From contig JANQHP010000040.1 in NCBI GenBank assembly GCA_028282625.1, forward strand, positions 1 through 33,530: a stretch of 33,530 bases of DNA, given 5' to 3'. Positions 429-17,133 of the stretch are shown here, in pieces. Source of the stretch: Rickettsiales bacterium (GTDB lineage Bacteria; Pseudomonadota; Alphaproteobacteria; Rickettsiales; UBA8987). A program made the position numbers and the translations under genes. Every line of letters starts with the position of its first letter. Position 1 is the stretch's first letter. The notes beneath the pieces were generated by a model. That model made no database searches, was not told the DNA's origin, and worked only from the letters and a program-made list of their open reading frames with translations.

Positions 429-1631
429 ATGACACTCTCACGCTTAACCAAACGTGTGGAGGCGCTAGGCTCTGCATGGGAACAATTTAAACAGGTCAAT
501 GATCGTCGGATTGACGAAATTGAACGCAAAGGCAATGCTGATCCACTGACGATCGAGCAGCTGAACAAGATCAATGGTGCGCTGGACGGATACAAAAACC
601 GCCTAGAACACATGGAAACCGCCATGGTGCGCCCAGGTCTTGGCGGCGTGGCAGCCCAAGGTGGCTACAGCGCTTCCGCCTCGGAGCACAAGGAAGCTTT
701 TTGCTCTTACCTGCGCAAAGGTACCGAAGACGATCTGGCATTTTTGGAGAAAAAAGCGCTTTCGGTTGGCTCAGACCCTGATGGTGGCTACTTGGTCACG
801 CAGCAGATGTCTGGCTCGATTGTGGAGAAAGTCTATGAAACGTCTCCGATGCGTCAGTTGGCTTCTGTGGAAAGCATTTCCAGCGATGCACTGGAAGTGC
901 TGGAAGAAACGACGGAAGCAGTCGCGGGTTGGAGTGCTTCAGAAACCGCCGCGGTAGCTGATACAGATACACCGGACTTCGTGAAGAAGGTGATTGCGGT
1001 GCATGAGCTTTTTGCGCAGCCTAAAGCGACCCAAAAGCTGCTGGATGATGCCAGTGTGGATGTGGAAGCCTGGCTTTCTGAGAAATTGGTGGATGTGTTC
1101 TCTCGCAAAGAGAATGCGGCTTTCATCAACGGAACGGGGACCGGTCATCCTAAGGGGATTTTGACGTATCCTGCAGGCACTTCTGCCACGCAAATTGAGC
1201 AGGTCAATTCCGGTAGTGCGGGTAATGTGACGGCCGATAGCCTGATTCAGCTTTATTACGCGCTGAAGGAAGAATATGCCGCGCATGCGACCTTCCTGAT
1301 GAACCGTGCGACCGTGCAACAAGCACGCTTGCTCAAAGAAAGCACGACGGATCAATATCTGTGGAATCCTGGTTTAAGCGCTGGCGCTCCCGATACGTTG
1401 CTCGGTGTACCGGTGATGCAAGCTGCCGACATGCCTGCACCTACGGCTTCCAGCCTTTCCGTGGCGCTCGGTGATTTCTCGCGTGCTTACCAGATTGTGG
1501 ACCGGACAGGGCTGCGTGTACTGCGTGACCCTTACACCGAGAAGCCTTTTGTGAAGTTTTACAGCACCAAACGTGTGGGCGGTGATGTGATTAACACTGA
1601 AGCGATCAAGCTGCTGAACCTTGCAGTGTAG
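429..1631 (+). CDS. HK97-fold major capsid protein (RcGTA g5 position)
   Basis: 400-aa ORF with AAGGA about 7 nt upstream of ATG 429. An N-terminal coiled delta-domain-like region (LNKINGALDGYKNRLEHME) is followed by typical HK97 capsid blocks (GSDPDGGYLV, ENAAFINGTGTGHPKGIL, AYQIVDRTGLRVLRDPYTEKPFVKFYSTKRVGGDV). Confidence 0.95.
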   Translation: MTLSRLTKRVEALGSAWEQFKQVNDRRIDEIERKGNADPLTIEQLNKINGALDGYKNRLEHMETAMVRPGLGGVAAQGGYSASASEHKEAFCSYLRKGTEDDLAFLEKKALSVGSDPDGGYLVTQQMSGSIVEKVYETSPMRQLASVESISSDALEVLEETTEAVAGWSASETAAVADTDTPDFVKKVIAVHELFAQPKATQKLLDDASVDVEAWLSEKLVDVFSRKENAAFINGTGTGHPKGILTYPAGTSATQIEQVNSGSAGNVTADSLIQLYYALKEEYAAHATFLMNRATVQQARLLKESTTDQYLWNPGLSAGAPDTLLGVPVMQAADMPAPTASSLSVALGDFSRAYQIVDRTGLRVLRDPYTEKPFVKFYSTKRVGGDVINTEAIKLLNLAV

Positions 1632-1656: not shown

Positions 1657-1694
1657 TGAGGCGGCAGGCATAGGGCTTGTCGCCTCATTTTTTT
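1657..1694 (+). terminator. Rho-independent terminator immediately after the capsid gene
   Basis: A 13-bp stem (1657-1669 pairs with 1675-1687; 11 Watson-Crick plus 2 G-U pairs) has a 5-nt loop ATAGG and is followed by seven T (1688-1694). Confidence 0.75.
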
Positions 1695-1716: not shown

Positions 1717-1959
1717 ATGCGTATTCAGATGACAGAGACACGCCGAGGCAGTGAGGACGGGCTCAAGGTGCGTTGCTACGAGAATGGGCAAACATACGAT
1801 ATGGAGCGCCATTTGGCCTGCGCTTTTTTGGCTGCCGGATGCGCCATTCCAGCTTGGGAGCAAACAAGCATCATTACCGCAGCGTGTTATGGCACAGAAC
1901 GCAGCCGTCCCAATAAAGGCAGATTCATTGAAATAAGGAACATGAAGGAAAAGACATGA
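1717..1959 (+). CDS. small hypothetical protein between the capsid and connector genes (80 aa)
   Basis: ATG 1717 is preceded by GAAGGGGG. The stop overlaps the next start (ATGA at 1956-1959). The N-terminus MRIQMTETRRGSEDGLKVRCYENGQTYDM resembles small conserved ORFs I recall next to capsid genes in alphaproteobacterial phages, from memory only. No family could be assigned. Confidence 0.5.
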   Translation: MRIQMTETRRGSEDGLKVRCYENGQTYDMERHLACAFLAAGCAIPAWEQTSIITAACYGTERSRPNKGRFIEIRNMKEKT

Positions 1960-2498
1960 AGCATCACTCACCAAGGCTAATATTATTTTTACCTCCGACC
2001 ATGGAACCACTCTCATTGGAGGAAGTAAAAGCCTATTTGCGTATTACAGATTCACGGCAAGATAACCTGGTTGATATTATGATTAAAGCCGCACGTGAAC
2101 ATGCGGAGCTTTATACACGGCGTTCTTTAATGGCAAGAGAGTGGAAGCTTGTCTATTCTGATTATGCCCCAACACGTGTGTTTCTTCCACGTGGACCCAT
2201 TCGTTCTTTTGCTTTTGTAAGAATAGAAGATGAATCAGGTGCCACCACGAATTTAAGCACGGATGAATATTATTTAAGCCCCTCTTCAGATGAAATCATT
2301 TTAAAAACCTCACCACGGGGCCATGCTGTCGAGTTTCGTTATGTAGGAGGATATGGTGGGGCTTCCAGCGTGCCTGGCGCCATTCGTCAGGGTATGCTGA
2401 TGCATATTGCGCAGATGTATGAATCAGAAGGTGTAGACCATGGCATGAGCACTGCCATACGCAATCTTTATGATATGTATCGGGTGGTAACGTTATGA
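1956..2498 (+). CDS. gp6-like head-tail connector/adaptor protein (RcGTA g6 position)
   Basis: The motif EPLSLEEVKAYLRITDSRQDNLVDIMIKAAREHAELYTRRSL is typical of the phage gp6-like head-tail connector family. ATGA overlaps at both ends (1956-1959 and 2495-2498) support translational coupling. An alternative start is ATG 2001. Confidence 0.85.
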   Translation: MKHHSPRLILFLPPTMEPLSLEEVKAYLRITDSRQDNLVDIMIKAAREHAELYTRRSLMAREWKLVYSDYAPTRVFLPRGPIRSFAFVRIEDESGATTNLSTDEYYLSPSSDEIILKTSPRGHAVEFRYVGGYGGASSVPGAIRQGMLMHIAQMYESEGVDHGMSTAIRNLYDMYRVVTL

Positions 2499-2845
2499 GT
2501 GGGCACCATCAACAAAAGATTGCACGCGCAAAGCTCAACACGTTTTTGACCATTGAGCAACCCATTCGGGTAAGCGACCAGGCGGGCGGTTATAGCACCA
2601 GCTGGCAGGTGCTCGCTGCCGTGTGGGGCTGGGTCCGACATGTGGGTAGCATTTCCAGTGATTCATATGGCAATAACGCTTCGGTAGGCGGGCAGCGCTT
2701 TCGGCTGGTGATACGCTACCGAAGCGATGTAACCGCGGATATGCGGATTCTGATCGATGGGAAGATCTATCGCATTCTTTCGGTGGTCGACCCGGATCAC
2801 GGGCAGCACACACTCGAGCTTATCATCGAAAAAGGAGAGCAATAA
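2495..2845 (+). CDS. head closure / head-tail joining protein (RcGTA g7 position)
   Basis: 116-aa ORF. The C-terminal pattern FRLVIRYRSDVTADMRILIDGKIYRILSVVDP is characteristic of the SPP1 gp16 / HK97 gp9-type head-tail joining family. It overlaps its neighbours (ATGA, TAATG). Confidence 0.85.
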   Translation: MSGHHQQKIARAKLNTFLTIEQPIRVSDQAGGYSTSWQVLAAVWGWVRHVGSISSDSYGNNASVGGQRFRLVIRYRSDVTADMRILIDGKIYRILSVVDPDHGQHTLELIIEKGEQ

Positions 2846-3252
2846 TGGCACAAGCAGCATGGGAAGTACAAAAATCGCTTTATGCACTGCTTTCTGGTGA
2901 CCCTACCTTGGCGGGTATGGTAAGCGGTGTGTATGATTTTGTACCGGTGGAGGCGGATTTTCCACTGGTGGTGATTGGGCGCACGAAAGAGGAGAGGATC
3001 GTTAGCCCCGGGGTTAGCACCACGGCGATTGGGATCGAGATCAGCGTGTTAAGCGAGGCAAGCAGCCGCGAGCAATGTACGGAGGTAGCAGAAAGAGTGG
3101 AGCATTTGCTACATAGCACAGCCCTGGTTCCACAAGGCTATCTGGTGGTGGGGAGCACGATCAAAGGGAACGTGACGCAGAAATTGGACGAGGGTGGCTA
3201 TTACCAAAGCATGATCCAGTGGGATGTGTGGGTGCGGCCTTCTGCGTCATAA
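2845..3252 (+). CDS. DUF3168-type tail terminator/completion protein (RcGTA g8 position)
   Basis: 135-aa ORF with AAAGGAGAG upstream. The N-terminus AWEVQKSLYALLSGDPTLAGMVSGVYDFVPVEADFPLVVIG matches the DUF3168 pattern found in GTA clusters. Confidence 0.85.
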   Translation: MAQAAWEVQKSLYALLSGDPTLAGMVSGVYDFVPVEADFPLVVIGRTKEERIVSPGVSTTAIGIEISVLSEASSREQCTEVAERVEHLLHSTALVPQGYLVVGSTIKGNVTQKLDEGGYYQSMIQWDVWVRPSAS

Positions 3253-3263
3253 TGTCTAACGGA

Positions 3264-3294
3264 CTGGATCCCGCTATCAAGTAGCGGGATGACG
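3264..3294. repeat. palindromic repeat CTGGATCCCGC-N9-GCGGGATGACG (same family as 17103-17133)
   Basis: A perfect 9-bp stem (ATCCCGCTA at 3268-3276 pairs with TAGCGGGAT at 3282-3290) has a 5-nt loop. The flanks CTGG...GACG are identical to those of the copy at 17103-17133. No T-run follows, so it is not a classical terminator. Confidence 0.65.
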
Positions 3295-3310
3295 CTAAAA
3301 ATTAAATAAA

Positions 3311-3339
3311 TTGAAACAAAAGTGCTGTTGTGGTATAGT
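3311..3339 (+). promoter_or_regulatory. candidate sigma70-type promoter TTGAAA-N17-TATAGT
   Basis: TTGAAA at 3311-3316, an exact 17-nt spacer, and TATAGT at 3334-3339, preceded by an A/T-rich tract (3296-3310). The predicted +1 (about 3346, an A) coincides with ATG 3346. Confidence 0.5.
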
Positions 3340-3345
3340 ATAGGC

Positions 3346-3777
3346 ATGCATTTAGGAAAAACACTGACATTGGATATTCGCCTGCAAGAGGCGGTGGTGG
3401 CTTTTAAGAAGGCGCTGATACCGGATATGGTGGACCAGCATGAGATGGTTGTAAGTGTAGATAGCCAGGAAGCGGCCACAGCGTACGCCGAGCAGAAAAC
3501 ACAGCAGATGGAGCGTACGCAGGAGCAAACACGCATGGAGCGTGAGAAAACGCACGAGATTTTGCATGACCCGCATTTTGCCTGGATGCAGACCGAAGAA
3601 CATAAATACCAGAAGGCACTTAGGAGTTTGGGGGTGGAGGTGGAGCAAGTGATTATGCCGCTGGCCGCCATCGTGCAGGCCTCGGTGGAAGAAGAGCTTG
3701 GGGTGGAGCCTGCGCTTACGCCTGCAGCAGCGATGCCTGCTCGTGAGGCCATGCCACCTCCTGCTGTGGCAGCGTAA
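3346..3777 (+). CDS. hypothetical acidic coiled-coil protein (143 aa from ATG 3346; 151 aa if GTG 3322 is used)
   Basis: This is the only long + strand ORF in the g8-g12 gap. It is hydrophilic, with a Q/E/R-rich predicted helix (AEQKTQQMERTQEQTRMEREKTHE) and a Pro/Ala-rich tail. There is no Shine-Dalgarno before either start, which fits a leaderless ATG 3346 if the promoter is real. The antisense ORF 3201-3812 is Cys/Ser-rich and looks like a shadow. Confidence 0.45.
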   Translation: MHLGKTLTLDIRLQEAVVAFKKALIPDMVDQHEMVVSVDSQEAATAYAEQKTQQMERTQEQTRMEREKTHEILHDPHFAWMQTEEHKYQKALRSLGVEVEQVIMPLAAIVQASVEEELGVEPALTPAAAMPAREAMPPPAVAA

Positions 3778-3810
3778 GCAACAAAACACATCATAGAATA
3801 CACGAACTGC

Positions 3811-3845
3811 AAGAAGCTGATTTTTCAGCTTCTTTTTTTGTTTTT
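3811..3845 (+). terminator. Rho-independent terminator 16 nt upstream of the g12 start
   Basis: A 9-bp perfect stem (AAGAAGCTG at 3811-3819 pairs with CAGCTTCTT at 3826-3834) has a 6-nt loop and is followed by TTTTTGTTTTT (3835-3845). Confidence 0.65.
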
Positions 3846-3861
3846 AAACGGAGGAATGATC

Positions 3862-4461
3862 ATGGATTTTGCAGAAGAGCGGTTGCCAGAAGATATCGCC
3901 AATGGCGCGGAGGGCGGCCCGGAGTTTTCGACCGATATTGTGGTGCTTAGCAGCGGGCATGAGCAGCGCAATAGCAATTGGCAATATCCGCGTGCGCGCT
4001 ACCACATCAGCAAGCCATTGCAAACGCAGGCGCAGATAGAGCGCTTGCAGGCCTTTTTTCGTGCGCGGAAAGGGCGTGCGGCCGGGTTTCGCTTTAAGGA
4101 TTGGAGCGATTACATGCTGGAAAGCGAGGCAATTGGCACGGGTACGGGCTTGGAAACCAGCTTCCAGCTGGTGAAATCGTACACGAGCGGTGGCGTGCAG
4201 AGCGTGCGCACCATTACCAAGCCTGTCATGGGAAGCATCAGCATTTTTGTGGATGGGTTTTTGCAATCCAGCGGCGTGAGTGTGGACGTAACGACTGGCG
4301 TCGTGACGTTTGATACGGCACCTGCCTTGGGTGGTGTGATCACTGCCAGTGGTGAATTTGATGTGCCGGTGCGCTTTGATAATGATTTGCTACAAGCCAA
4401 GCTGGAAGAGCAGGGAAGCTACAGCATGAACAATATAGAGTTAGTTGAAATACGCTTATAA
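3862..4461 (+). CDS. DUF2460-family distal tail protein (RcGTA g12 position)
   Basis: The N-terminus MDFAEERLPEDIANGAEGGPEFSTDIVVLSSGHEQRNSNWQYPRARYHIS fits the conserved DUF2460/TIGR02217-type N-terminus. CGGAGG lies 7 nt upstream of ATG 3862. The ORF-track start at 3838 is an upstream extension. Confidence 0.9.
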   Translation: MDFAEERLPEDIANGAEGGPEFSTDIVVLSSGHEQRNSNWQYPRARYHISKPLQTQAQIERLQAFFRARKGRAAGFRFKDWSDYMLESEAIGTGTGLETSFQLVKSYTSGGVQSVRTITKPVMGSISIFVDGFLQSSGVSVDVTTGVVTFDTAPALGGVITASGEFDVPVRFDNDLLQAKLEEQGSYSMNNIELVEIRL

Positions 4462-4502: not shown

Positions 4503-5360
4503 ATGAAAACGCTTAGTTCCGCCTTAAATGCGCATTTGCAGCAGGAGGTGACCACGCTTGCACTCTGCTGGAAACTGACTCGCACCGATAGCGTGGTAAT
4601 GGGGTTCACCACCGCGGACCGGGATATTGTTCTGGATGGGGTGACCTATCAGGCTTCCACCGGTTTTGCGCCCGGTGATTTGGAAAGTAATGCGCAAATG
4701 GAGGATGACCGACTGTTGCTGGAAGGATTGCTGCATACCGAAGCGATTACCGATCAGGATGTGACCGCGGGAGTCTATGATTTTGCGGATATTGAGATCT
4801 TTATGGTGAATTATATGGATTTGACCCAAGGCAAAGTGGTGCTTCGGACCGGTATTTTTGGGGAAGTGACCTATGAAAACAACCAGTTTTCAGTCGAAAT
4901 TCACGGCAAATCCCACCAGATGAACCGCACGATCGGGCAGCTTTATTCCCCGCTATGCCGCGCAGAGCTTGGTGATAGCGCGTGCGGTGTAGCACTTGCG
5001 GGCTATACGCGCACCGGCACGGTGACCCAGGTGTTAGACGCCCAAACGCTGGAGGATACAGCGCTGACAGATGTTTCGGGCTTCTTCGATTTTGGCGTGG
5101 TGACCTTTACCAGCGGTGCCAATCAGGGCAAAAGCATGGAGGTGCGGCGCTATATCAACGATGCCTCCTCGCCGCGCTTTACCCTAGCCTTGCCCATGCC
5201 AGAGCCAGTGCAGGTGGGTGATGGCTACAGCATCGTAGCGGGGTGCGACAAGAAAATCGCCACATGCAAGGCGCGCTTTAACAATATCCTCAATTTCCGC
5301 GGGGAGCCTCATGTGCCGGGCATGGACCGGATGCTAAACGGTGATTCGACGCCAAGCTAG
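4503..5360 (+). CDS. DUF2163 / BR0599-family tail hub protein (RcGTA g13 position)
   Basis: The N-terminus TTLALCWKLTRTDSVVMGFTTADRDIVLDGVTYQASTGF and the C-terminus GCDKKIATCKARFNNILNFRGEPHVPGMD match the conserved DUF2163 and phage BR0599 C-terminal motifs. Confidence 0.9.
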   Translation: MKTLSSALNAHLQQEVTTLALCWKLTRTDSVVMGFTTADRDIVLDGVTYQASTGFAPGDLESNAQMEDDRLLLEGLLHTEAITDQDVTAGVYDFADIEIFMVNYMDLTQGKVVLRTGIFGEVTYENNQFSVEIHGKSHQMNRTIGQLYSPLCRAELGDSACGVALAGYTRTGTVTQVLDAQTLEDTALTDVSGFFDFGVVTFTSGANQGKSMEVRRYINDASSPRFTLALPMPEPVQVGDGYSIVAGCDKKIATCKARFNNILNFRGEPHVPGMDRMLNGDSTPS

Positions 5361-5362
5361 CC

Positions 5363-5848
5363 ATGCAACCTACATTGGATCATAGGCGACGCCAGATTGT
5401 GAAAGAGGCGCGCGGGTGGCTTGGCACGCCTTTTTTGCATCAGGGGAGGGTGTGCCATAGTGATGTGGCGCGCGGCGGGTGCGACTGCATTGGATTGATT
5501 GCCGGTGTGGCGAAGGCGCTACAGCTCAAAAGCCACGCGCCGAGCAACCCACTGCTGCACAGTGTGGATATGGGAGGTTATGGGCGTGTACCCGACGGGA
5601 TCCATCTGGAGCGGATGCTGAAGACGCATTTACACATAATTCCGCTGGAAAGCTCCTTGCCAGGCGATGTGCTGCTGCTGCGCTTTGCTGAGCATCCACA
5701 GCATGTGGCGCTTTTAAGCGATTATGGCACGGCACGCGGCATGATCCATTGCTACGCGCAGGCGCGCCGTGTGGTGGAGCATCGCTACGACCGCTGGTGG
5801 CAGGCGCGCACGGTTTCTGCTTTTCGTTTTGATCTTTTCGTTCACTAA
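5363..5848 (+). CDS. NlpC/P60-family cell-wall peptidase (RcGTA g14 position)
   Basis: 161 aa. EARGWLGTPFLHQGRV...GGCDCIGLIAGV contains the NlpC/P60 catalytic Cys context. It starts 2 nt after the g13 stop. Confidence 0.85.
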   Translation: MQPTLDHRRRQIVKEARGWLGTPFLHQGRVCHSDVARGGCDCIGLIAGVAKALQLKSHAPSNPLLHSVDMGGYGRVPDGIHLERMLKTHLHIIPLESSLPGDVLLLRFAEHPQHVALLSDYGTARGMIHCYAQARRVVEHRYDRWWQARTVSAFRFDLFVH

Positions 5849-5884: not shown

Positions 5885-8800
5885 ATGGCTTCTATTGTAC
5901 TGAATTCTGCGGCAACCTATGTAGGCAACAGCAATCCGCTGTTGAACCTTGGCTTGCGGCTTGCCTCTAAAACGGTAGGCAAGCAGGTGGATAACTGGCT
6001 TTTGGCACGCTTTCAGCCACCCAAAATTGTAGGTTCCAGGCTTTCGGATGTGGCGGTGCAAAGCTCAGCCTATGGTGACATGATGCCGGTGATTTATGGC
6101 AATGCGCGAATTGCGGGCAATATTATCTGGTCGCGTCCGATCAAGGAAACCGCGAGTACAAGCTCTGCCGGGAGTTCTGGTGGTAAGGGTGGCGCCGGAA
6201 CTGCAAGCCGTAGGCAAACCACGTTTTCCTATTCCGTGACGCTTGCCATTGGGCTTTGCGAGGGTCCAATTGATGAGGTAGTACGCATTTGGGCGGATTC
6301 TACTATCATTGATCCGGAGCAGTTGGCGGGATCGTATCGCATCTACCAAGGTGATGAGGCGCAAATGCCTGACCCGGTGATGGAAGGGTTTGAAGGATCA
6401 GGCAATGTGCCGGCTTACCGCGGCATGGCCTATATTGTGCTGGAAGATTTTCCGCTGGAGGAATTTGGTAACCGCGTGCCCAACTTCACTTTTGAGCTGA
6501 AGCGTCGCGTGATGGAAGCAGGCGCAGAGGAAGAGGTGGAAGAGGCAATCCATGAGATGATGGTCATTCCGGGCGCAGGTGAGTTTGTGTATGACACGCA
6601 GGTGCAGCAGAAGCTGGCGGGCAAGGATGTGGGGGGCAACTGGATCCAGCAGGGTGGTTTGCAGGCAATCAACCAGAATAATCTGCACCACAAAGCAGAT
6701 GCCGTGCTGGCGCTGGATCAATTGCAGGAAACCTGCCCGAACCTCACCTGGATTGGGCTGGTGGTCAGCTGGTTTGGCGATAGTTTAGATGCGGGGCAGT
6801 GCATCATCAAGCCGGGTGTGGAGTATACAGAAGGCGCGCATACGCAGCCCGATAGCTGGCAGGTGGCGGGCTACACGCGCGGAACCGCGCATCCTATTTC
6901 CACCGACGAGCAAGGCATTGTGCGCTATGGCGGGACGCCGACCGATGCAAGTGTGCTGCGCCTGATTGCCGAGGCCAAAAACCGTGGGCTCAAGGTGATG
7001 CTTTACCCGATGGTGTTTATGGATTTGCCGGATAAGCCCTGGCGCGGGCGGATGAGTGGTACACCAGTTAATGTGAGTAATTTATTTACAAAAACAGAGG
7101 GTTATGATGCATTTATTATGCATTATGCAAACCTTGTGGGGAGCCAAGTCGATGCCTTCGTGATTGGCTCCGAGCTGATTGGGCTCACCAGCGTGCAGGA
7201 TGTGGATAACAGCTTTCCCGCAGTGGATGCCTTGGTGAATCTAGCCTGGCTGGTGAAGCCGGTGGTGGGGAGCAATGTGACCGTGACCTATGCTGCGGAT
7301 TGGAGTGAGTATCACCACACGACCGGCGGGTGGTATCACCTGGACCCGCTTTGGGCTTCCCCCAATATTGATGTGGTGGGGATCGATGCCTATTTCCCGC
7401 TGACCGATACGCCACAAGAGTCGATTACCGAGCAGGATATCAAGGATGGCTGGACTTCCGGGGAAGGGTATGACTGGATTTATACGGATGAAGCGCGGAC
7501 GATTAAGCAAAATATTGCGCCAGAATATGCGTGGAAAAACATCGAGTGGTGGTGGAAAAACACGCACACCAACCCCGATAGCAGCGTGACAGCCTGGGTG
7601 CCGGAATCGAAGAAGATCTGGTTTACCGAGTTTGGTTTTCCGAGTGTGGATGGGTGTAGCAACCAGCCCAACGTGTTTTTTGATCCCGCCAGTAGTGAGG
7701 GCGCTTTGCCACGTTTTTCCACCGGTTCGATTGATATTCGTGCGCAGCGTATGGCGATTCGGGCCACGCGCGCGGTGTGGAAAAATTCCACGATGATCGA
7801 GCGGCAATTCTTGTGGACGTGGGATGCGCGCCCGTTTCCTTTTTGGCCCGACCTCACCAGCATTTGGGGCGATGGTCCGCTCTGGGCAACCGGTCATTGG
7901 GTGCAGGGCAAGTTTGGCACGTCGGGCCTGGGGTCTATTATCCGCAATTTATGCCAGCGTGCGGGAATCAAGGATGCTGAAATTGACACCTCCCGCTTTA
8001 GCGATCTGGTGGATGGCTATGTGTTGGCCGATCAAACCACCGCCAAGGAGGCCGTGGGCGACCTGCAGCAGGCCTATTTCTTTGATATACAGGACTCCTC
8101 GCCGCTGCTGAGCTTTATGCCGCGCGGCAACCTTCCGATCATCACACTGACAGAAGAGGATTTGGTACCGGATCGCAAAAACAAGTTGCTGCGCCTGATA
8201 CGTGTGGAGGAGAACGAAATTCCGCAGAAGGTGGACGTGAATTATATCCGCAAAAGCTCGGATTATCAGGTGGGCAACCAGCATGCGCGCCGTATTTCTG
8301 GCTACAGCCAGGAGCAGCAGACGCTGAATTTGCCGGTGGTGATGAACGATCAGCAGGCGCGCACGATTGCCGATATTGCGCTTTTTGAGCGCTGGAATAG
8401 CCGCACGCTTTATGTATTCCGCCTTTCTATGCGGCACGCAGCGCTGGAGCCCGCAGATGTGGTGCAGCTGGAGGTGGAAGGCAAAACGCATCTGCTGCGC
8501 CTGGTGCGGACCGAGGTCAAAACGCCGGGCGTGATGGAGGTAGAGGCGGTGATCGAGAATCAGCTGCTCTACCGCAGAAATTATGCACCAAGCTCGGGCG
8601 AGGGGACCTATAGCCTGCCACCAGAAGGCGAGGTGGCCTTGCAGATGCTTGATATTCCTTCGCTCACGCAAACCGATACGCCGCAACTGCATGTGGCCGC
8701 GTGTGGCACGGGCGGCAGGTGGCAGGGTGCTGCGCTCTACCGATCAGACGATACGGGCACAACCTTTCGGCAAAGTGTGGATATTGAGCAGCAGGCAGTA

Positions 8801-9547
8801 CTTGGCAGCGTGGTGGAAGCGTTGCCGCTTGCTTTTGCTTCCCTTGTGGACCGTGGGAGTAGCCTCGAGGTGCTGTTGCTGCAAGGAGAGCTGGAAAGCA
8901 TAAGCGAAGAGGCGGTGCTCAATGGTGCCAATGCCGCGCTGGTGGGCGATGAGATCATCCAGTTTCAAACGGCGACCTATCTGGAAGCGCAGCGTTACCG
9001 CTTGAGCGGGTTTTTGCGCGGCAGGATGGGTACGGAGTGGGCGATGGCTGAGCACAGTGCGGGCGAACGCTTTGTGCTGCTCGATAGCCTGGTGCAGGCG
9101 GTGGAGGTTTCGCCTTCGCTCTTTGGCATTAAGCGGCATTATAAGGCCGCCGCCTTTGGGCAGAGCCTTGAGAGTGCGGCGCTCGTGCCATTTACCTACG
9201 AAGCGCGGACGTTGATGCCTTACGCGCCAGCACATGTGAGGGGCGTGCGCCAGAGCGATGATAGCCTCACAATTCAGTGGATACGCCGTGCACGGGTGCA
9301 GGGCCAGTGGGCCAATGGCATCGACGTGCCGCTGGATGAGGCAAGCGAGCAGTATGAGGTGGATATTTTGGATGGCGGGGGTGCGGTGGTGCGTACGATT
9401 GCGGGGCTTGCGAGCCCTACTTGCAGTTATAGCGCCGCAGAGCAAACGGCGGATTTTGGCAGCGTGCAGGTCAATGTGCGTGTGGTGGTCTATCAAGTAT
9501 CACAGCGAGTCGGGAGGGGTTATGGGACTGAAGAAACCATCAGATAA
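5885..9547 (+). CDS. GTA host-specificity / baseplate multidomain protein (RcGTA g15 position)
   Basis: Uninterrupted 1220-aa ORF. The N-terminus ...GSRLSDVAVQSSAYGDMMPVIYGNARIAGNIIWSRPIKE matches the conserved start of GTA g15 / phage host-specificity proteins. The central region with WFTEFGFPSVDG looks like the GTA TIM-barrel-like glycoside-hydrolase domain. Confidence 0.92.
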   Translation: MASIVLNSAATYVGNSNPLLNLGLRLASKTVGKQVDNWLLARFQPPKIVGSRLSDVAVQSSAYGDMMPVIYGNARIAGNIIWSRPIKETASTSSAGSSGGKGGAGTASRRQTTFSYSVTLAIGLCEGPIDEVVRIWADSTIIDPEQLAGSYRIYQGDEAQMPDPVMEGFEGSGNVPAYRGMAYIVLEDFPLEEFGNRVPNFTFELKRRVMEAGAEEEVEEAIHEMMVIPGAGEFVYDTQVQQKLAGKDVGGNWIQQGGLQAINQNNLHHKADAVLALDQLQETCPNLTWIGLVVSWFGDSLDAGQCIIKPGVEYTEGAHTQPDSWQVAGYTRGTAHPISTDEQGIVRYGGTPTDASVLRLIAEAKNRGLKVMLYPMVFMDLPDKPWRGRMSGTPVNVSNLFTKTEGYDAFIMHYANLVGSQVDAFVIGSELIGLTSVQDVDNSFPAVDALVNLAWLVKPVVGSNVTVTYAADWSEYHHTTGGWYHLDPLWASPNIDVVGIDAYFPLTDTPQESITEQDIKDGWTSGEGYDWIYTDEARTIKQNIAPEYAWKNIEWWWKNTHTNPDSSVTAWVPESKKIWFTEFGFPSVDGCSNQPNVFFDPASSEGALPRFSTGSIDIRAQRMAIRATRAVWKNSTMIERQFLWTWDARPFPFWPDLTSIWGDGPLWATGHWVQGKFGTSGLGSIIRNLCQRAGIKDAEIDTSRFSDLVDGYVLADQTTAKEAVGDLQQAYFFDIQDSSPLLSFMPRGNLPIITLTEEDLVPDRKNKLLRLIRVEENEIPQKVDVNYIRKSSDYQVGNQHARRISGYSQEQQTLNLPVVMNDQQARTIADIALFERWNSRTLYVFRLSMRHAALEPADVVQLEVEGKTHLLRLVRTEVKTPGVMEVEAVIENQLLYRRNYAPSSGEGTYSLPPEGEVALQMLDIPSLTQTDTPQLHVAACGTGGRWQGAALYRSDDTGTTFRQSVDIEQQAVLGSVVEALPLAFASLVDRGSSLEVLLLQGELESISEEAVLNGANAALVGDEIIQFQTATYLEAQRYRLSGFLRGRMGTEWAMAEHSAGERFVLLDSLVQAVEVSPSLFGIKRHYKAAAFGQSLESAALVPFTYEARTLMPYAPAHVRGVRQSDDSLTIQWIRRARVQGQWANGIDVPLDEASEQYEVDILDGGGAVVRTIAGLASPTCSYSAAEQTADFGSVQVNVRVVVYQVSQRVGRGYGTEETIR

Positions 9548-9803
9548 TCAAGAAATAAACGAACTGGCGATGCGGCGCATCATGAAGGAAACGGTGAAGG
9601 AAGCCGTGCACGAGACGCTGACCGGGCTTGGGTTTAACACCGAGCACCCGCACGAGATGCAGGCGGATCTGCGCTATTTGCACAAAACGCGCAAGGGGAG
9701 TGAGTTTTTGGCGCTTCGGGCGAAAACCTCACTGCTAGCCTTTATGGTGCCCACGGCGCTCTATATTTTGTGGGAGGCACTTAAAGAGGGCGTGAAGAAA
9801 TAG
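9522..9803 (+). CDS. small C-terminally membrane-anchored hypothetical protein (93 aa), overlapping the g15 3' end
   Basis: ATG 9522 is preceded by GGGAGGGG (9512-9519). It overlaps g15 by 26 nt in another frame. An amphipathic N-terminal region is followed by one hydrophobic helix (LLAFMVPTALYILWEAL). The ORF-track start at 9258 would put 88 extra codons inside g15. Confidence 0.6.
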   Translation: MGLKKPSDNQEINELAMRRIMKETVKEAVHETLTGLGFNTEHPHEMQADLRYLHKTRKGSEFLALRAKTSLLAFMVPTALYILWEALKEGVKK

Positions 9804-9832
9804 CATGCTTTAGCAGTGGGCATCCAACGTCG

Positions 9833-9861
9833 TTGCCTTTAAGCGCAATTGGCACTATCGT
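9833..9861 (+). promoter_or_regulatory. weak candidate promoter TTGCCT-N17-TATCGT upstream of the membrane-protein gene
   Basis: 4/6 matches in each hexamer with a 17-nt spacer. It is the only such arrangement in the 97-nt spacer. Confidence 0.25.
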
Positions 9862-9900
9862 AGAGCAGAGAAGGGTTATTGTATTAAGGATAGAAGTGTT

Positions 9901-11277
9901 ATGGCAAGTCGTCTTGCACAGCCGGGATTTTGGATCAAAACGCTTCTGTTTCTGCTGGCAGAAGGGGCGCTGATATGGACCTATATCCAAAAGATAGAAC
10001 GCGTGAGCTTTATTTGTAGCCATCGTTCGCTTTATACCCCCTCTTTTACCGCGTTTTGCGACCAGTCGCTCGCACTGCATTATTTGCATTTTTCCCTGCT
10101 TTCCCTGGCACTTGCGCTCTTTTTGTTAGCGCTTTATCTGTTGCCGCTAACCTGGCGGAATATCTGGCGATCGAGCCTATGCTTCTTCGTGGCGCTGTAT
10201 CTTTTGGTTTCCGGCTATTGGGTAATTACCTCTCATATTGCAGACGTGCGCACCTATAGCTATGAGCTGTTCATTACCGCCTTTTATACCTGGATGACGC
10301 TCTGCTTGGTGCTTTTGCTGATCGCGGTATTGTTTCCACCCATTCGACGCGCAGCGGTGATTGTGGCCTTGCTCTTCACCGCAATCGCCACGGTGCTCTT
10401 TACGCTGGAAGGGCGAGGCAGTGTGGAACATATTACCCCGCTACTGGGCGGATTGTTTGCGGATGTATCCTTTTACACCATTCGTCTGAGTGCGCTCTTT
10501 AGCGTATGGATGATGCTTACCGTTGGCGCATTGGCAATTGCTTTAATCTGGTTAGCAAGCCAATGGGTCCGCTCAGGCCATGTAACGGTGCAGCCGGTGC
10601 TTCAAACAGGGAAATATGTGCTGATTGCGATTGCCATTTCAAGCCTGTCCCTTCTTTCCATCCCATTTGGTAATCGCTTGAATCAGAGTGATGTGGCACA
10701 CGCCAAAGGATTTATTGAAACCTTTGTGCCAAAATTGGAGGGTTATTATAGCACCTATGGCCAGTATCCCAAAAATCTGGATCGTTTTTTGGAGTCCATT
10801 ACCTCGGTGCCGCGCTTGATTGATATCTTTGAGTATCTCGCGCATGAGCATGAGGGGTCGTATTATTTAAGCCGACCGCAGAAATATTGCTTTGTGTTCC
10901 TGGATCCGGGGCGGAAGTTTGGCTACCACGCGTACACAAGCGATACCAAAAAATGGCAGTATTTTAGCCCACTGCAATCGCTGGAGAATGAGTATTTAAA
11001 CGTATGCGGCGACGATGGCCCAACTTCACATGAGGCTATTTTAGCCGACCATTTGGGGCTTAAAGGCTTGCACGATCCGCTTGGTCGTCTTGGTGCCGAG
11101 GTGGGTATGGTCACGCCGCCGCCTGGCACACGGCAGTCCACCCAGCGCTTGAAAAACGAACTGCAAAGCCTAGGCCGCCAGGAGCCTTCGATCTACGGCA
11201 CCATTCCAGGAAACACGCAGGAGCTAAGGGCATTGCTGCACCAAAGTCAGGAAAAAGCCGCACCAGTAGAGGAATAG
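9901..11277 (+). CDS. polytopic membrane protein (about 7-8 TM) with a ~190-aa C-terminal soluble domain, function unknown
   Basis: 458-aa ORF with AAGGAT upstream. Hydrophobic segments repeat through residue ~265. The hydrophilic domain then begins AHAKGFIETFVPKLEGYYSTYGQYPKNLDRFL. I recognise no family. Confidence 0.7.
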   Translation: MASRLAQPGFWIKTLLFLLAEGALIWTYIQKIERVSFICSHRSLYTPSFTAFCDQSLALHYLHFSLLSLALALFLLALYLLPLTWRNIWRSSLCFFVALYLLVSGYWVITSHIADVRTYSYELFITAFYTWMTLCLVLLLIAVLFPPIRRAAVIVALLFTAIATVLFTLEGRGSVEHITPLLGGLFADVSFYTIRLSALFSVWMMLTVGALAIALIWLASQWVRSGHVTVQPVLQTGKYVLIAIAISSLSLLSIPFGNRLNQSDVAHAKGFIETFVPKLEGYYSTYGQYPKNLDRFLESITSVPRLIDIFEYLAHEHEGSYYLSRPQKYCFVFLDPGRKFGYHAYTSDTKKWQYFSPLQSLENEYLNVCGDDGPTSHEAILADHLGLKGLHDPLGRLGAEVGMVTPPPGTRQSTQRLKNELQSLGRQEPSIYGTIPGNTQELRALLHQSQEKAAPVEE

Positions 11278-17049: not shown

Positions 17050-17078
17050 GTCATTCCCGCGTAGGCGGGAATCTAAGG
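17050..17078. repeat. palindromic repeat GTCATTCCCGC-GTAG-GCGGGAATCTAAGG (inverted variant of the 17103 / 3264 family)
   Basis: A perfect 8-bp stem (17053-17060 pairs with 17065-17072) has a tetraloop. Its reverse complement TAGATTCCCGC...GCGGGAATGAC parallels CTGGATCCCGC...GCGGGATGACG. Confidence 0.6.
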
Positions 17079-17102
17079 GTCAGGATGTAAGGAGGTGATG
17101 GT

Positions 17103-17133
17103 CTGGATCCCGCGATTAAATCGCGGGATGACG
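17103..17133. repeat. palindromic repeat CTGGATCCCGC-N9-GCGGGATGACG (second copy of the 3264-3294 family)
   Basis: A perfect 10-bp stem (ATCCCGCGAT at 17107-17116 pairs with ATCGCGGGAT at 17120-17129). The flanks are identical to the copy at 3264-3294. Confidence 0.65.

What the first reader, a model, noticed from the sequence alone, without database searches (positions are those of the whole stretch)
3253..3861. The GTA tail tube / chaperone / tape-measure block (g9-g11) is missing and replaced by a foreign-looking 0.6-kb cassette
Seen:
- The DUF3168 gene (g8 position) ends at 3252 and the DUF2460 gene (g12 position) starts at 3862.
- The 609-nt gap contains only a palindromic repeat (3264-3294), an A/T-rich promoter-like region, one 143-151-aa acidic coiled-coil ORF and a terminator.
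- The flanking GTA genes are long, uninterrupted and mostly overlapping or only a few nt apart. g15 is 1220 aa with no frameshift.

Known: in RcGTA-type clusters g8 is followed by the major tail (tube) protein g9, chaperones g10/g10.1 and the tape measure g11 before g12. Together these need well over 1 kb and are required to build a tail.

Inference: this is not a generally decayed cluster. There are three possibilities:
- The tube/TMP genes have been relocated, giving a split GTA locus.
- The cluster makes something structurally different from a canonical siphovirus-like GTA.
- A recent replacement event has disabled it.

The same repeat family occurs at a second intergenic site (17103-17133), which suggests that repeat-mediated recombination created the junction.
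Basis: partly seen in the sequence, partly recalled or inferred. Interest (0 to 1): 0.78.

Follow-up and report, generated by a model that had tools for sequence, protein, structure and literature searches.

The report
GTA gene cluster lacking its tail-tube module
A chromosomal gene-transfer-agent cluster lacks its tail-tube, chaperone and tape-measure genes and has a small orphan gene in their place, but related clusters from other samples share this layout, so it is an old reduced architecture of a kind already described, not a fresh disruption.

Summary
g8 (tail terminator, 2845-3252) and g12 (distal tail protein, 3862-4461) are 609 nt apart. No trace of g9, g10, g10.1 or g11 exists anywhere in the 33.5-kb window. 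The spacer holds:
- a REP-like palindrome;
- a sigma-70-like promoter;
- a 143-aa acidic helical ORF with no homologue in 1.8-5.8 billion proteins;
- an intrinsic terminator.

Most of the interpretation does not hold.
- The ORF is not foreign-looking, because its codon usage is host-like.
- The junction is not recent. The closest relative found (L079, capsid 71% identical) has the same g8 / promoter / hydrophilic orphan ORF / terminator / g12 layout.
- Three more distant contigs join g8 to g12 directly or through one 111-aa ORF.
- Nothing ties the palindrome to the junction.

Other relatives of this capsid clade have clusters that stop after g8 or after g9 and two small ORFs. Published surveys describe the same pattern in Rickettsiales: heads plus distal tail, hub and megatron kept, other tail parts undetected.

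Best reading: a maintained, reduced or split GTA cluster with a moron-like resident gene in the gap. Whether tube and tape measure sit at another locus or are dispensed with cannot be decided from one contig. An independent assembly of run SRR20820736 breaks at 3291 and 3687, so the junction needs read-level confirmation.

The parts
429..1631 (+). g5 major capsid protein (HK97 type)
   Evidence: PF05065, E 6e-84. 71% identical to the capsid of L079.
1657..1687 (+). strong intrinsic terminator after the capsid gene
   Evidence: 13-bp stem followed by T7. -25.9 kcal/mol, z -6.4.
1717..1959 (+). 80-aa conserved small ORF between g5 and g6
   Evidence: 44-60% identical tblastn matches at the same position in L080-L082. 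No Pfam or PHROG family.
1956..2498 (+). g6 head-tail adaptor
   Evidence: PF05135, E 1.9e-08.
2495..2845 (+). g7 head completion (stopper) protein
   Evidence: PF05521, E 9.5e-20.
2845..3252 (+). g8 tail terminator
   Evidence: PF11367, E 1.6e-13. phrog_176 'tail terminator'.
3261..3294 (.). REP-like palindrome, copy 1
   Evidence: 10-bp stem, -15.5 kcal/mol. 85% identical to 17100-17133 with compensatory stem changes. The Logan contig L043 ends at 3291, inside it.
3311..3339 (+). sigma-70-like promoter (TTGAAA, 17 nt, TG-n-TATAGT)
   Evidence: 10 of 12 consensus matches plus an extended -10. The ATG at 3346 lies 7 nt after the -10 hexamer and has no Shine-Dalgarno sequence, so a leaderless mRNA is inferred.
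3346..3777 (+). ORF143, an orphan acidic helical protein (alternative GTG start at 3322 gives 151 aa)
   Evidence: Host-like codon usage in this frame only. Only self-hits in the 5.8e9 and 1.84e9 protein libraries. No credible family match in Pfam, PHROGs or NCBIfam, and no PDB match by sequence or fold. hhalign against g9, g10 and g11 profiles gives probabilities of 0.3% or less. AlphaFold2 predicts four helices at mean pLDDT 69.
3811..3845 (+). intrinsic terminator of ORF143
   Evidence: 10-bp stem followed by a T run. -15.3 kcal/mol, z -4.4.
3862..4461 (+). g12 distal tail protein (GGAGG ribosome-binding site 8 nt upstream)
   Evidence: PF09343, E 4e-70. TIGR02217 above its cutoff.
4503..5360 (+). 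g13 baseplate hub
   Evidence: PF09931 plus PF09356.
5363..5848 (+). g14 NlpC/P60 peptidase
   Evidence: PF00877, E 5e-05.
5885..9547 (+). g15 megatron (1220 aa)
   Evidence: PF22612, PF13547, PF13550 and PF23666.
17100..17133 (.). REP-like palindrome, copy 2 (between exoD and tkt)

Best explanation
This is a chromosomal RcGTA-type head-tail cluster with a reduced, old architecture. The tube, chaperone and tape-measure module (g9-g11) is not encoded between the tail terminator g8 and the distal tail protein g12. The head-neck genes (g5-g8) and baseplate genes (g12-g15) are kept intact.

The gap is occupied by an ordinary REP-like palindrome and by a lineage-specific gene, ORF143. ORF143 looks like an independent transcription unit: its own sigma-70-type promoter, probably a leaderless ATG, and its own intrinsic terminator. 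In phage terms this is a 'moron'. It has no detectable relationship to any tail protein.

Shown:
- g9-g11 are absent from the window.
- The neighbouring genes are intact.
- ORF143 has native codon usage and no homologue.
- g8-to-g12 junctions without g9-g11 occur in independent contigs.
- Clusters in capsid relatives are often split at or after g8.

Inferred:
- The junction predates the divergence of the window and L079.
- g12-g15 are transcribed by read-through or processive antitermination across the internal terminators, as in the Caulobacter GTA.
- If the particle still has a tube, g9-g11 are supplied from another locus (a split cluster). This is the reading I commit to, and it is also the weakest step.
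For: Absence of g9-g11 and intact flanks.

ORF143 is a real gene but unrelated to tail proteins. Its promoter and terminator.

Same layout in L079:
- capsid 71% identical;
- g8 confirmed by PF11367 at 6.7e-18;
- promoter-like CTGAAA-17-TATAAT;
- a 228-aa A/Q/E-rich ORF;
- a terminator at -20.6 kcal/mol, followed by g12.

Other junctions without g9-g11:
- L091: g8 overlaps g12 by 8 nt.
- L094: 9 nt between g8 and g12.
- Both g8 genes match the g8 profile at 93-95% probability, and L091's matches the g9 profile at 0.1%.
- L172: g8, a 111-aa ORF, then g12, tightly packed.

Split clusters in capsid relatives:
- L082 and L085 stop after g8.
- L081 stops after g9 plus two small ORFs.
- L079 starts at the portal gene with no adjacent terminase.

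Literature:
- In Rickettsiales, capsid/portal plus distal tail, hub and megatron are conserved, many other components were not identified, and several clusters are scattered per genome; tail components such as the tail tube are reported missing or undetected in the diplonemid endosymbionts (PMC9254644).
- GafZ antitermination bypasses terminators inside the Caulobacter GTA cluster (PMC11150451).
Against: - No second locus with g9-g11 could be looked for. Only one contig of this organism is available, and the nearest relatives are short metagenomic contigs.
- ORF143 and the L079 ORF share no detectable sequence similarity (BLASTP E 6; Smith-Waterman z -0.26). The shared layout could therefore be convergent rather than inherited.
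- A good terminator 27 nt before g12, with no promoter after it, would block g12-g15 expression unless antitermination exists. That is assumed, not shown.
- The junction is not confirmed by the independent Logan assembly, which breaks at 3291 and 3687.
Confidence: 0.4

Rival explanations
1. Tube-less particle. This lineage no longer uses a tail tube or tape measure. The terminator ring (g8) docks directly on the distal-tail or baseplate complex (g12-g15), giving a head with a stubby, podovirus-like tail. Such a tail would still pierce the outer membrane and hand DNA to the recipient's uptake machinery.
For: - g8 and g12 are translationally coupled (8-nt overlap or 9-nt gap) in L091 and L094.
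- They are separated only by a 111-aa ORF in L172.
- Both flanking modules stay intact across relatives whose g12 is only 35-62% identical to the window's.
- A published survey of Rickettsiales and Holosporaceae genomes reports tail components as missing or undetected, and some tail domains (for example the megatron TIM barrel) under purifying selection (PMC9254644).
- From general knowledge: terminator, tube and distal-tail proteins share one fold and stack ring on ring, and RcGTA DNA entry depends on recipient competence proteins.
Against: - No known siphovirus-type tail assembles without a tape measure and tube.
- g9 is present next to g8 in capsid relatives L080, L081 and L083, so the tube gene exists in the clade.
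- No particle data exist.
- The g8-g12 interaction was not modelled.
Confidence: 0.25
2. Inactive remnant. The deletion of g9-g11 disabled the GTA. The remaining genes are decaying or have been co-opted, and ORF143 with its terminator simply fills and polarises a dead operon.
For: - A terminator lies directly upstream of g12 with no downstream promoter.
- g8 has diverged so far that no word-sharing homologue was found among 5.8e9 proteins.
- The literature treats loss of tail genes as possible ongoing reduction, with relaxed selection on tail domains (PMC9254644).
Against: - Every flanking gene is a full-length ORF with full-length domain matches, including the 1220-aa g15.
- The same architecture at 71% capsid identity (L079), and g8-g12 junctions in three further g12 lineages, imply long persistence. 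That is hard to reconcile with neutral decay.
Confidence: 0.2
3. Functional replacement. ORF143, and the positional counterparts ORF228 in L079 and ORF111 in L172, is a fast-evolving analogue of the tape measure or tail chaperone that cannot be recognised by sequence.
For: - ORF143 and ORF228 are helical and/or hydrophilic, acidic and A/E/Q-rich; ORF111 has a coiled-coil N-terminus; all three sit where g10 and g11 normally lie.
- ORF111 of L172 has a coiled-coil N-terminus and a Gly-rich hydrophobic stretch, and a weak hhalign match to the g11 profile (E 0.004, probability 8%).
- Kogay et al. note that apparent gaps may be replacements by analogous genes (PMC9765227).
Against: - ORF143 matches g9, g10 and g11 profiles at 0.3% probability or less.
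- It has no hydrophobic Gly-rich segment and lacks the conserved C-terminal motif of the g11 alignment.
- It carries its own promoter and terminator instead of being coupled to the operon.
- It has no similarity to ORF228 or ORF111.
- A tape measure without a tube gene explains little.
Confidence: 0.08
4. Assembly artefact or strain variant. The real genome, or a co-existing strain, carries g9-g11, and the assembler jumped across repeated sequence.
For: - An independent Logan assembly of SRR20820736 ends exactly on the 31-mer 3261-3291 of the palindrome, which belongs to a repeat family.
- It resumes at 3687, inside ORF143.
- No Logan contig covering 3292-3686 was found.
Against: - Both sides are in the correct order and orientation.
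- The palindrome is only 34 nt, shorter than a read.
- ORF143 reads through position 3687 without a frame or codon-usage break.
- An unrelated metagenome contig, L079, has the same layout.
Confidence: 0.05

Closest known systems
Reduced or scattered RcGTA-like clusters of Rickettsiales, Holosporaceae and Rhodospirillales (George et al. 2022, PMC9254644; 'small clusters' of Shakya et al. 2017, PMC5721377)
   Same: - Head and portal genes plus distal tail, hub and megatron are retained.
- Tube and other tail parts are missing or undetected.
- Clusters are often broken into several loci.
- The genes that remain are intact.
   Different: - Head-neck and baseplate modules here are contiguous on one chromosomal stretch, with 9 recognisable RcGTA homologues. 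By Shakya's count (9 or more) this would be a 'large cluster'.
- The host appears to be free-living: 52% GC, with transketolase, GAPDH, PGK, PGI and a DeoC/LacD-family aldolase next to the cluster.
- The exact g8|g12 junction, with an inserted autonomous gene, is not described in the text I could read.
Canonical RcGTA head-tail cluster (Rhodobacter capsulatus g1-g15; structure in PMC7296036)
   Same: - Same gene order and families for g5, g6, g7, g8, g12, g13, g14 and g15.
- Chromosomal location.
- A megatron with the GTA_TIM domain.
   Different: - g9 (PF06199), g10 (PF11836), g10.1 (PF09550) and g11 are absent. They are present in canonical loci L026, L035, L040 and L041.
- In an NJ tree, g12 groups away from the canonical loci.
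Phage 'morons' (autonomous promoter-gene-terminator units between two genes that are adjacent in related phages; concept from HK97/HK022 comparisons, recalled from my own knowledge)
   Same: - ORF143 lies between g8 and g12, which are adjacent in L091 and L094.
- It has a predicted sigma-70 promoter in front and an intrinsic terminator behind.
   Different: - Morons usually differ in base composition from their surroundings. ORF143 does not.
- Expression independent of the cluster is not shown.
Caulobacter crescentus GTA cluster with internal terminators bypassed by GafZ (PMC11150451)
   Same: Strong intrinsic terminators lie inside a GTA cluster that otherwise looks like one operon. In the window they sit after g5 and after ORF143.
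   Different: No GafY/GafZ homologue or binding element was searched for or seen in the window, so antitermination here is an assumption.

Membership tests
RcGTA-type head-tail cluster | Collinear head-neck genes g5-g8 (HK97 capsid, adaptor, head completion, tail terminator) | tested here: met
   PF05065, PF05135, PF05521 and PF11367, in order and mostly overlapping.
RcGTA-type head-tail cluster | Baseplate genes g12-g15 (Rcc01695-family distal tail protein, phiJL001 gp84/BR0599 hub, NlpC/P60 peptidase, megatron with GTA_TIM) | tested here: met
RcGTA-type head-tail cluster | Tail tube g9 (PF06199), chaperones g10 and g10.1 (PF11836, PF09550) and tape measure g11 between g8 and g12 | tested here: not met
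   No Pfam hit in the spacer ORF. No tblastn trace in the window. hhalign probabilities of 0.3% or less.
RcGTA-type head-tail cluster | Chromosomal, not part of an intact prophage (no integrase, replication or lysogeny genes nearby) | tested here: inconclusive
   Downstream flank is housekeeping genes: a DeoC/LacD-family aldolase, folD, tkt, gap, pgk and glyS. The upstream side is cut off within what is presumably the prohead protease gene.
RcGTA-type head-tail cluster | Produces particles that package host DNA | not testable with these tools
   Needs culture, EM and DNA analysis.
Reduced or split GTA clusters (George et al. 2022 pattern) | Head and portal plus distal tail, hub and megatron retained while the tube and tape measure are undetected | tested here: met
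   The same holds in L079, L091, L094 and L172.
Reduced or split GTA clusters (George et al. 2022 pattern) | GTA genes distributed over several loci of one genome | not testable with these tools
   Only one contig of this organism is available. Relatives L081, L082, L085 and L079 show cluster ends at g8, after g9 plus two small ORFs, or before the portal gene.
Phage moron | Inserted between genes that are adjacent in relatives | tested here: met
   g8 and g12 are adjacent in L091 and L094.
Phage moron | Own promoter and factor-independent terminator | tested here: inconclusive
   Consensus matches and a stable hairpin only. There is no transcript evidence. One promoter-like hit in the region is about what shuffled sequence gives (0.8 expected).
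Phage moron | Base composition different from the neighbours | tested here: not met
   GC 55% against 52%. The codon score of 0.41 is within or above the neighbours' range.
Tape measure, tail chaperone or tail tube protein (for ORF143) | Sequence, profile or fold similarity to PF06199, PF11836, PF09550 or GTA g11 | tested here: not met

The most novel reading that the evidence does not exclude
Several alphaproteobacterial lineages, including this one, have GTA-like particles that dispensed with the tail tube and tape measure. The g8 terminator ring sits directly on the g12-g15 baseplate, making a short-tailed, siphovirus-derived particle. The recurrent, sometimes translationally coupled g8|g12 junction would be its genomic signature.
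Probability: 0.22. Interest if true: 0.8.

Novelty: new member of a known kind. Interest (0 to 1): 0.4.

Why it matters
Whether 'incomplete' GTA clusters are junk, split systems or a different machine is an open question in GTA biology (PMC9254644, PMC9765227).

This window and the four related contigs narrow it. The missing part is exactly one assembly module (tube, chaperones, tape measure). The cut falls at the same g8|g12 boundary in several g12 lineages. Both retained modules stay intact.

That gives a concrete, testable contrast: a second locus versus a tube-less particle. It also gives a simple genomic marker, the g8-g12 distance, for screening complete genomes. On its own, this locus is one more example of a known pattern. 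ORF143 is an uninformative orphan.

Tried and rejected
ORF143 as a tube, chaperone or tape-measure protein. No credible match in any of:
- Pfam, PHROGs, NCBIfam;
- PDB by sequence and by fold;
- profile-profile comparison against g9, g10 and g11 alignments built from canonical loci.

Homologues of ORF143. Only the protein itself was found in:
- the 5.8e9-protein word search;
- the full phmmer scan of 1.84e9 representatives;
- phage and plasmid tblastn;
- the loci of the nearest relatives.

Other readings of the spacer:
- Minus-strand ORFs across the spacer (203 and 145 aa) have negative codon-usage scores and no family, so they are spurious.
- A structured RNA or tRNA: no Rfam family and no tRNA in the window.
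- Relocation within the window: the genes after g15 are a 93-aa TM protein (phrog_6420) and a 458-aa polytopic membrane protein, then housekeeping genes.

Close relatives for breakpoint mapping. None exists in the collections.
- The best g12 is 62% identical.
- g8 finds nothing.
- The best capsid is 71% identical.

Other dead ends:
- Homology between ORF143 and the L079 ORF228 or the L172 ORF111: none.
- A paper mentioning run SRR20820736: none.
Full report
**What is in the window**

The first 9.5 kb is an RcGTA-type head-tail cluster on the + strand.
- It starts with a cut-off 5' gene (presumably the prohead protease) and the g5 capsid gene (429-1631).
- A strong terminator follows at 1657-1687, then an 80-aa ORF.
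- Next come g6 (1956-2498), g7 (2495-2845) and the g8 tail terminator (2845-3252).
- After the spacer come the g12 distal tail protein (3862-4461), the g13 hub (4503-5360), the g14 NlpC/P60 peptidase (5363-5848) and a 1220-aa g15 megatron with all four expected domains.
- After g15 lie a 93-aa membrane-anchored protein (phrog_6420) and a 458-aa polytopic membrane protein.
- Ordinary chromosomal genes follow: a DeoC/LacD-family aldolase, CNNM, folD, exoD, tkt, gap, pgk, an NtrC-type regulator, nadC, rpsP, mnh, pgi, glyS and hom.

This is a bacterial chromosome, not a phage genome.

**Check of the observation**

- The g8-g12 spacer (3253-3861) is 609 nt.
- It holds a palindrome (3261-3294; 10-bp stem, -15.5 kcal/mol, z -3.1).
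- It holds an A/T-rich stretch with a near-consensus promoter (TTGAAA, 17 nt, TG-n-TATAGT; 3311-3339).
- It holds an ORF of 143 aa from ATG 3346, or 151 aa from GTG 3322, ending at 3777.
- It holds a hairpin plus T-run terminator (3811-3845; -15.3 kcal/mol, z -4.4).
- A second copy of the palindrome sits at 17100-17133. It is 85% identical with compensatory stem changes, and a related palindrome lies at 17050-17073.

tblastn with g9, g10, g10.1 and g11 from four canonical GTA loci, and with tube, chaperone and tape-measure proteins from two prophages, finds no trace of these genes anywhere in the 33.5 kb.

**One caveat about the junction**

Two contigs from an independent (Logan) assembly of run SRR20820736 are 100% identical to the window. 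One ends at 3291; its last 31-mer lies within the 34-nt palindrome (3261-3294). The other begins at 3687, inside the ORF. No contig covering 3292-3686 was found.

The join is therefore vouched for only by the window's own assembly. I rate an artefact as unlikely, for three reasons:
- order and orientation are right;
- the ORF runs through 3687 with no change in coding statistics;
- an unrelated metagenome shows the same layout (see below).

It should still be checked with reads.

**What ORF143 is**

It is very probably a real gene. Its frame scores 0.41 on a codon-usage log-odds built from the window's confirmed genes. Its GTA neighbours score 0.13-0.39 and the other five frames are all negative. 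Its GC1/2/3 pattern matches the neighbours. So it is not 'foreign-looking'; only the roughly 50-nt promoter region is A/T-rich.

It is a true orphan.
- The only hit among 5.8 billion clustered proteins is itself.
- The only hit in a full phmmer scan of 1.84 billion representatives is also itself.
- There is no credible match in Pfam, PHROGs, NCBIfam or PDB by sequence.
- There is nothing in phage or plasmid collections.

AlphaFold2 without an alignment gives four helices (11-24, 40-73, 76-94, 99-118) and a disordered Pro/Ala-rich tail, at mean pLDDT 69. Foldseek finds nothing meaningful. Profile-profile comparison with alignments of g9, g10 and g11 from canonical loci gives probabilities of 0.07-0.2%.

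The ATG lies 7 nt after the -10 hexamer with no Shine-Dalgarno sequence. I therefore infer a leaderless, monocistronic unit closed by its own terminator. That is the anatomy of a phage 'moron', apart from its native composition.

**Relatives**

No close relative exists in the collections.
- The best g12 is 62% identical.
- g8 finds nothing.
- The best capsid is 71% identical (L079).

The comparison is still informative.

1. L079 (40% GC) has portal, protease, g5, g6, g7 and g8 (PF11367, 6.7e-18). Then come an A/T-rich spacer with CTGAAA-17-TATAAT, a 228-aa A/Q/E-rich hydrophilic ORF with no family, a 10-bp terminator (-20.6 kcal/mol), and g12 with its own ribosome-binding site. This is the window's architecture. 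The two middle ORFs share no detectable similarity, however (BLASTP E 6; Smith-Waterman z -0.26), and L079 has no palindrome.

2. L091 and L094 (27-28% GC) have g7, then a g8 that matches the g8 profile at 93-95% probability (L091's matches the g9 profile at 0.1%). g12 then overlaps g8 by 8 nt or follows after 9 nt.

3. L172 has g8 (PF11367, 4.8e-25), a tightly coupled 111-aa ORF, then g12 and g13.

4. The closest relatives of the window's tail module are L075-L078 and L096-L098 (g12 58-62%, g13 47-50%, g15 45-51%). In L077 and L096-L098 the roughly 7 kb upstream of g12 holds three to four large forward ORFs of unknown family preceded by reverse-strand genes (four in L077, L097 and L098). L097 shows g8, and L077 a g9-like gene, at the upstream end of this region. 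L075 and L076 show only unknown forward ORFs upstream of g12. No recognisable g10 or g11 is present.

5. Other capsid relatives end their cluster right after g8 (L082, L085) or after g9 plus two small ORFs (L081). L080 and L083 have g9 downstream of the neck genes (directly after g8 in L080).

6. Canonical loci L026, L035, L040 and L041 have the expected g8-g9-g10(-g10.1)-g11-g12 within about 1.4-1.7 kb.

An NJ tree of g12 puts the window next to group 4. L091 and L094 form one separate branch and L172 another. The g8|g12 junction without g9-g11 therefore occurs in at least three g12 lineages.

**Consequences for the interpretation**

A recent, one-off replacement that has just disabled the cluster is unlikely. 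The layout is shared with a relative whose g8 is only 33% identical. Junctions of the same kind persist elsewhere, with intact and even translationally coupled flanking genes.

Nothing supports repeat-mediated recombination. The palindrome is a REP-like intergenic element of a kind seen elsewhere in the window, and it is absent from L079.

The literature already describes the general pattern.
- In Rickettsiales, capsid/portal complexes plus distal tail, hub and megatron are broadly conserved, many components are undetected, clusters are scattered, and some tail domains remain under purifying selection (George et al. 2022, PMC9254644).
[quoted passage not shown] 2022, PMC9765227).
- Shakya et al. 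2017 separate large from small clusters (PMC5721377).

**Most likely mechanism**

I commit to the following reading.
- The cluster is a maintained, reduced GTA cluster.
- ORF143 is an unrelated resident gene with its own promoter and terminator.
- The tube, chaperone and tape-measure functions, if used, come from another locus. Clusters in this capsid clade are demonstrably broken at just these module boundaries.
- g12-g15 would then depend on read-through of the ORF143 terminator. Processive antitermination across terminators inside a GTA cluster is established for Caulobacter (PMC11150451), and the window has another strong terminator after g5. No antiterminator was identified here.

Confidence is about 0.4. 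The rivals are:
- a tube-less, short-tailed particle (0.25);
- an inactive remnant (0.2);
- ORF143 as an unrecognisable tape-measure or chaperone analogue (0.08);
- an assembly artefact or strain variant (0.05).

**Novelty and score**

This is a new member of a known kind: an incomplete or split RcGTA-like cluster. There are two modest additions.
- The loss is module-precise and recurs at the g8|g12 boundary.
- In two related lineages the gap hosts a moron-like orphan gene.

A specialist would not be very surprised. The value lies in a sharper, testable form of an open question. Interest is 0.4. If the tube-less particle reading proved true (probability about 0.22), it would deserve about 0.8.

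Noticed in passing
L075-L078 and L096-L098 (for example L097:1102-7966): The closest relatives of the window's g12-g15 carry a large unknown region upstream of g12. L097 has ~7 kb between g8 and g12: four reverse-strand genes (one with a weak SUEL-lectin hit) plus three large forward ORFs (~330-580 aa). L077 and L098 share this layout with ORFs up to 685 aa, and L096 has four forward ORFs (337-851 aa). None of those scanned has a phage family hit in Pfam or PHROGs. They also carry DUF2335 between g13 and g14, and some have DUF2793 after g15. This may be an unrecognised alternative tail module.
   Followed up: partly
L172:1905-2240: A 111-aa ORF tightly coupled between g8 and g12, with a coiled-coil N-terminus and a Gly-rich hydrophobic stretch. 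It has a weak hhalign match to the N-terminal half of the g11 profile (E 0.004, probability 8%). It may be a miniature tape measure.
   Followed up: partly
L031:9214-9995; L033:9269-9995; L061:910-1566: Loci in which the tube gene g9 is followed by one ORF of about 100 aa (L031, L033) or by a gap of about 240 nt (L061), and then directly by g12, with no normal-size tape measure. In L031 and L033, g8 lies several kb upstream.
   Followed up: no
window 1717-1959: An 80-aa ORF between the capsid gene and g6, conserved at the same position (44-60% identity) in L080-L082. It belongs to no known family and is not part of the RcGTA gene list.
   Followed up: partly
window 1657-1687: A very strong intrinsic terminator (13-bp stem, T7, -25.9 kcal/mol) directly after the capsid gene, inside the cluster. 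It would fit attenuation or antitermination control.
   Followed up: partly
window 17050-17133: Two adjacent REP-like palindromes in the exoD-tkt intergenic region. GTCATTCCCGCGTAGGCGGGAATC is at 17050-17073, and a copy of the 3261-3294 element is at 17100-17133, with compensatory stem changes between the two copies.
   Followed up: partly
window 61, 3291, 3687 and 12230: Logan contigs of SRR20820736 are identical to the window but break at these four positions. The window's own left end (position 1) is only 60 nt from the first break. This may reflect a repeat or strain variation there, within the cut-off 5' gene.
   Followed up: partly
window 9522-11277: After g15 come a 93-aa protein (phrog_6420, C-terminal hydrophobic helix; possibly holin-like) and a 458-aa polytopic membrane protein with no family. 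The 5' end of the 93-aa gene overlaps the end of g15.
   Followed up: no
L079:1-3216: In the closest capsid relative the cluster begins at the portal gene, directly after two reverse-strand non-phage genes. The terminase is therefore not adjacent, which is another sign of scattered GTA genes in this clade.
   Followed up: partly
L080-L083: Capsid relatives with about 1.4-2.5 kb of extra sequence between g5 and the 80-aa ORF or g6. The content was not examined.
   Followed up: no
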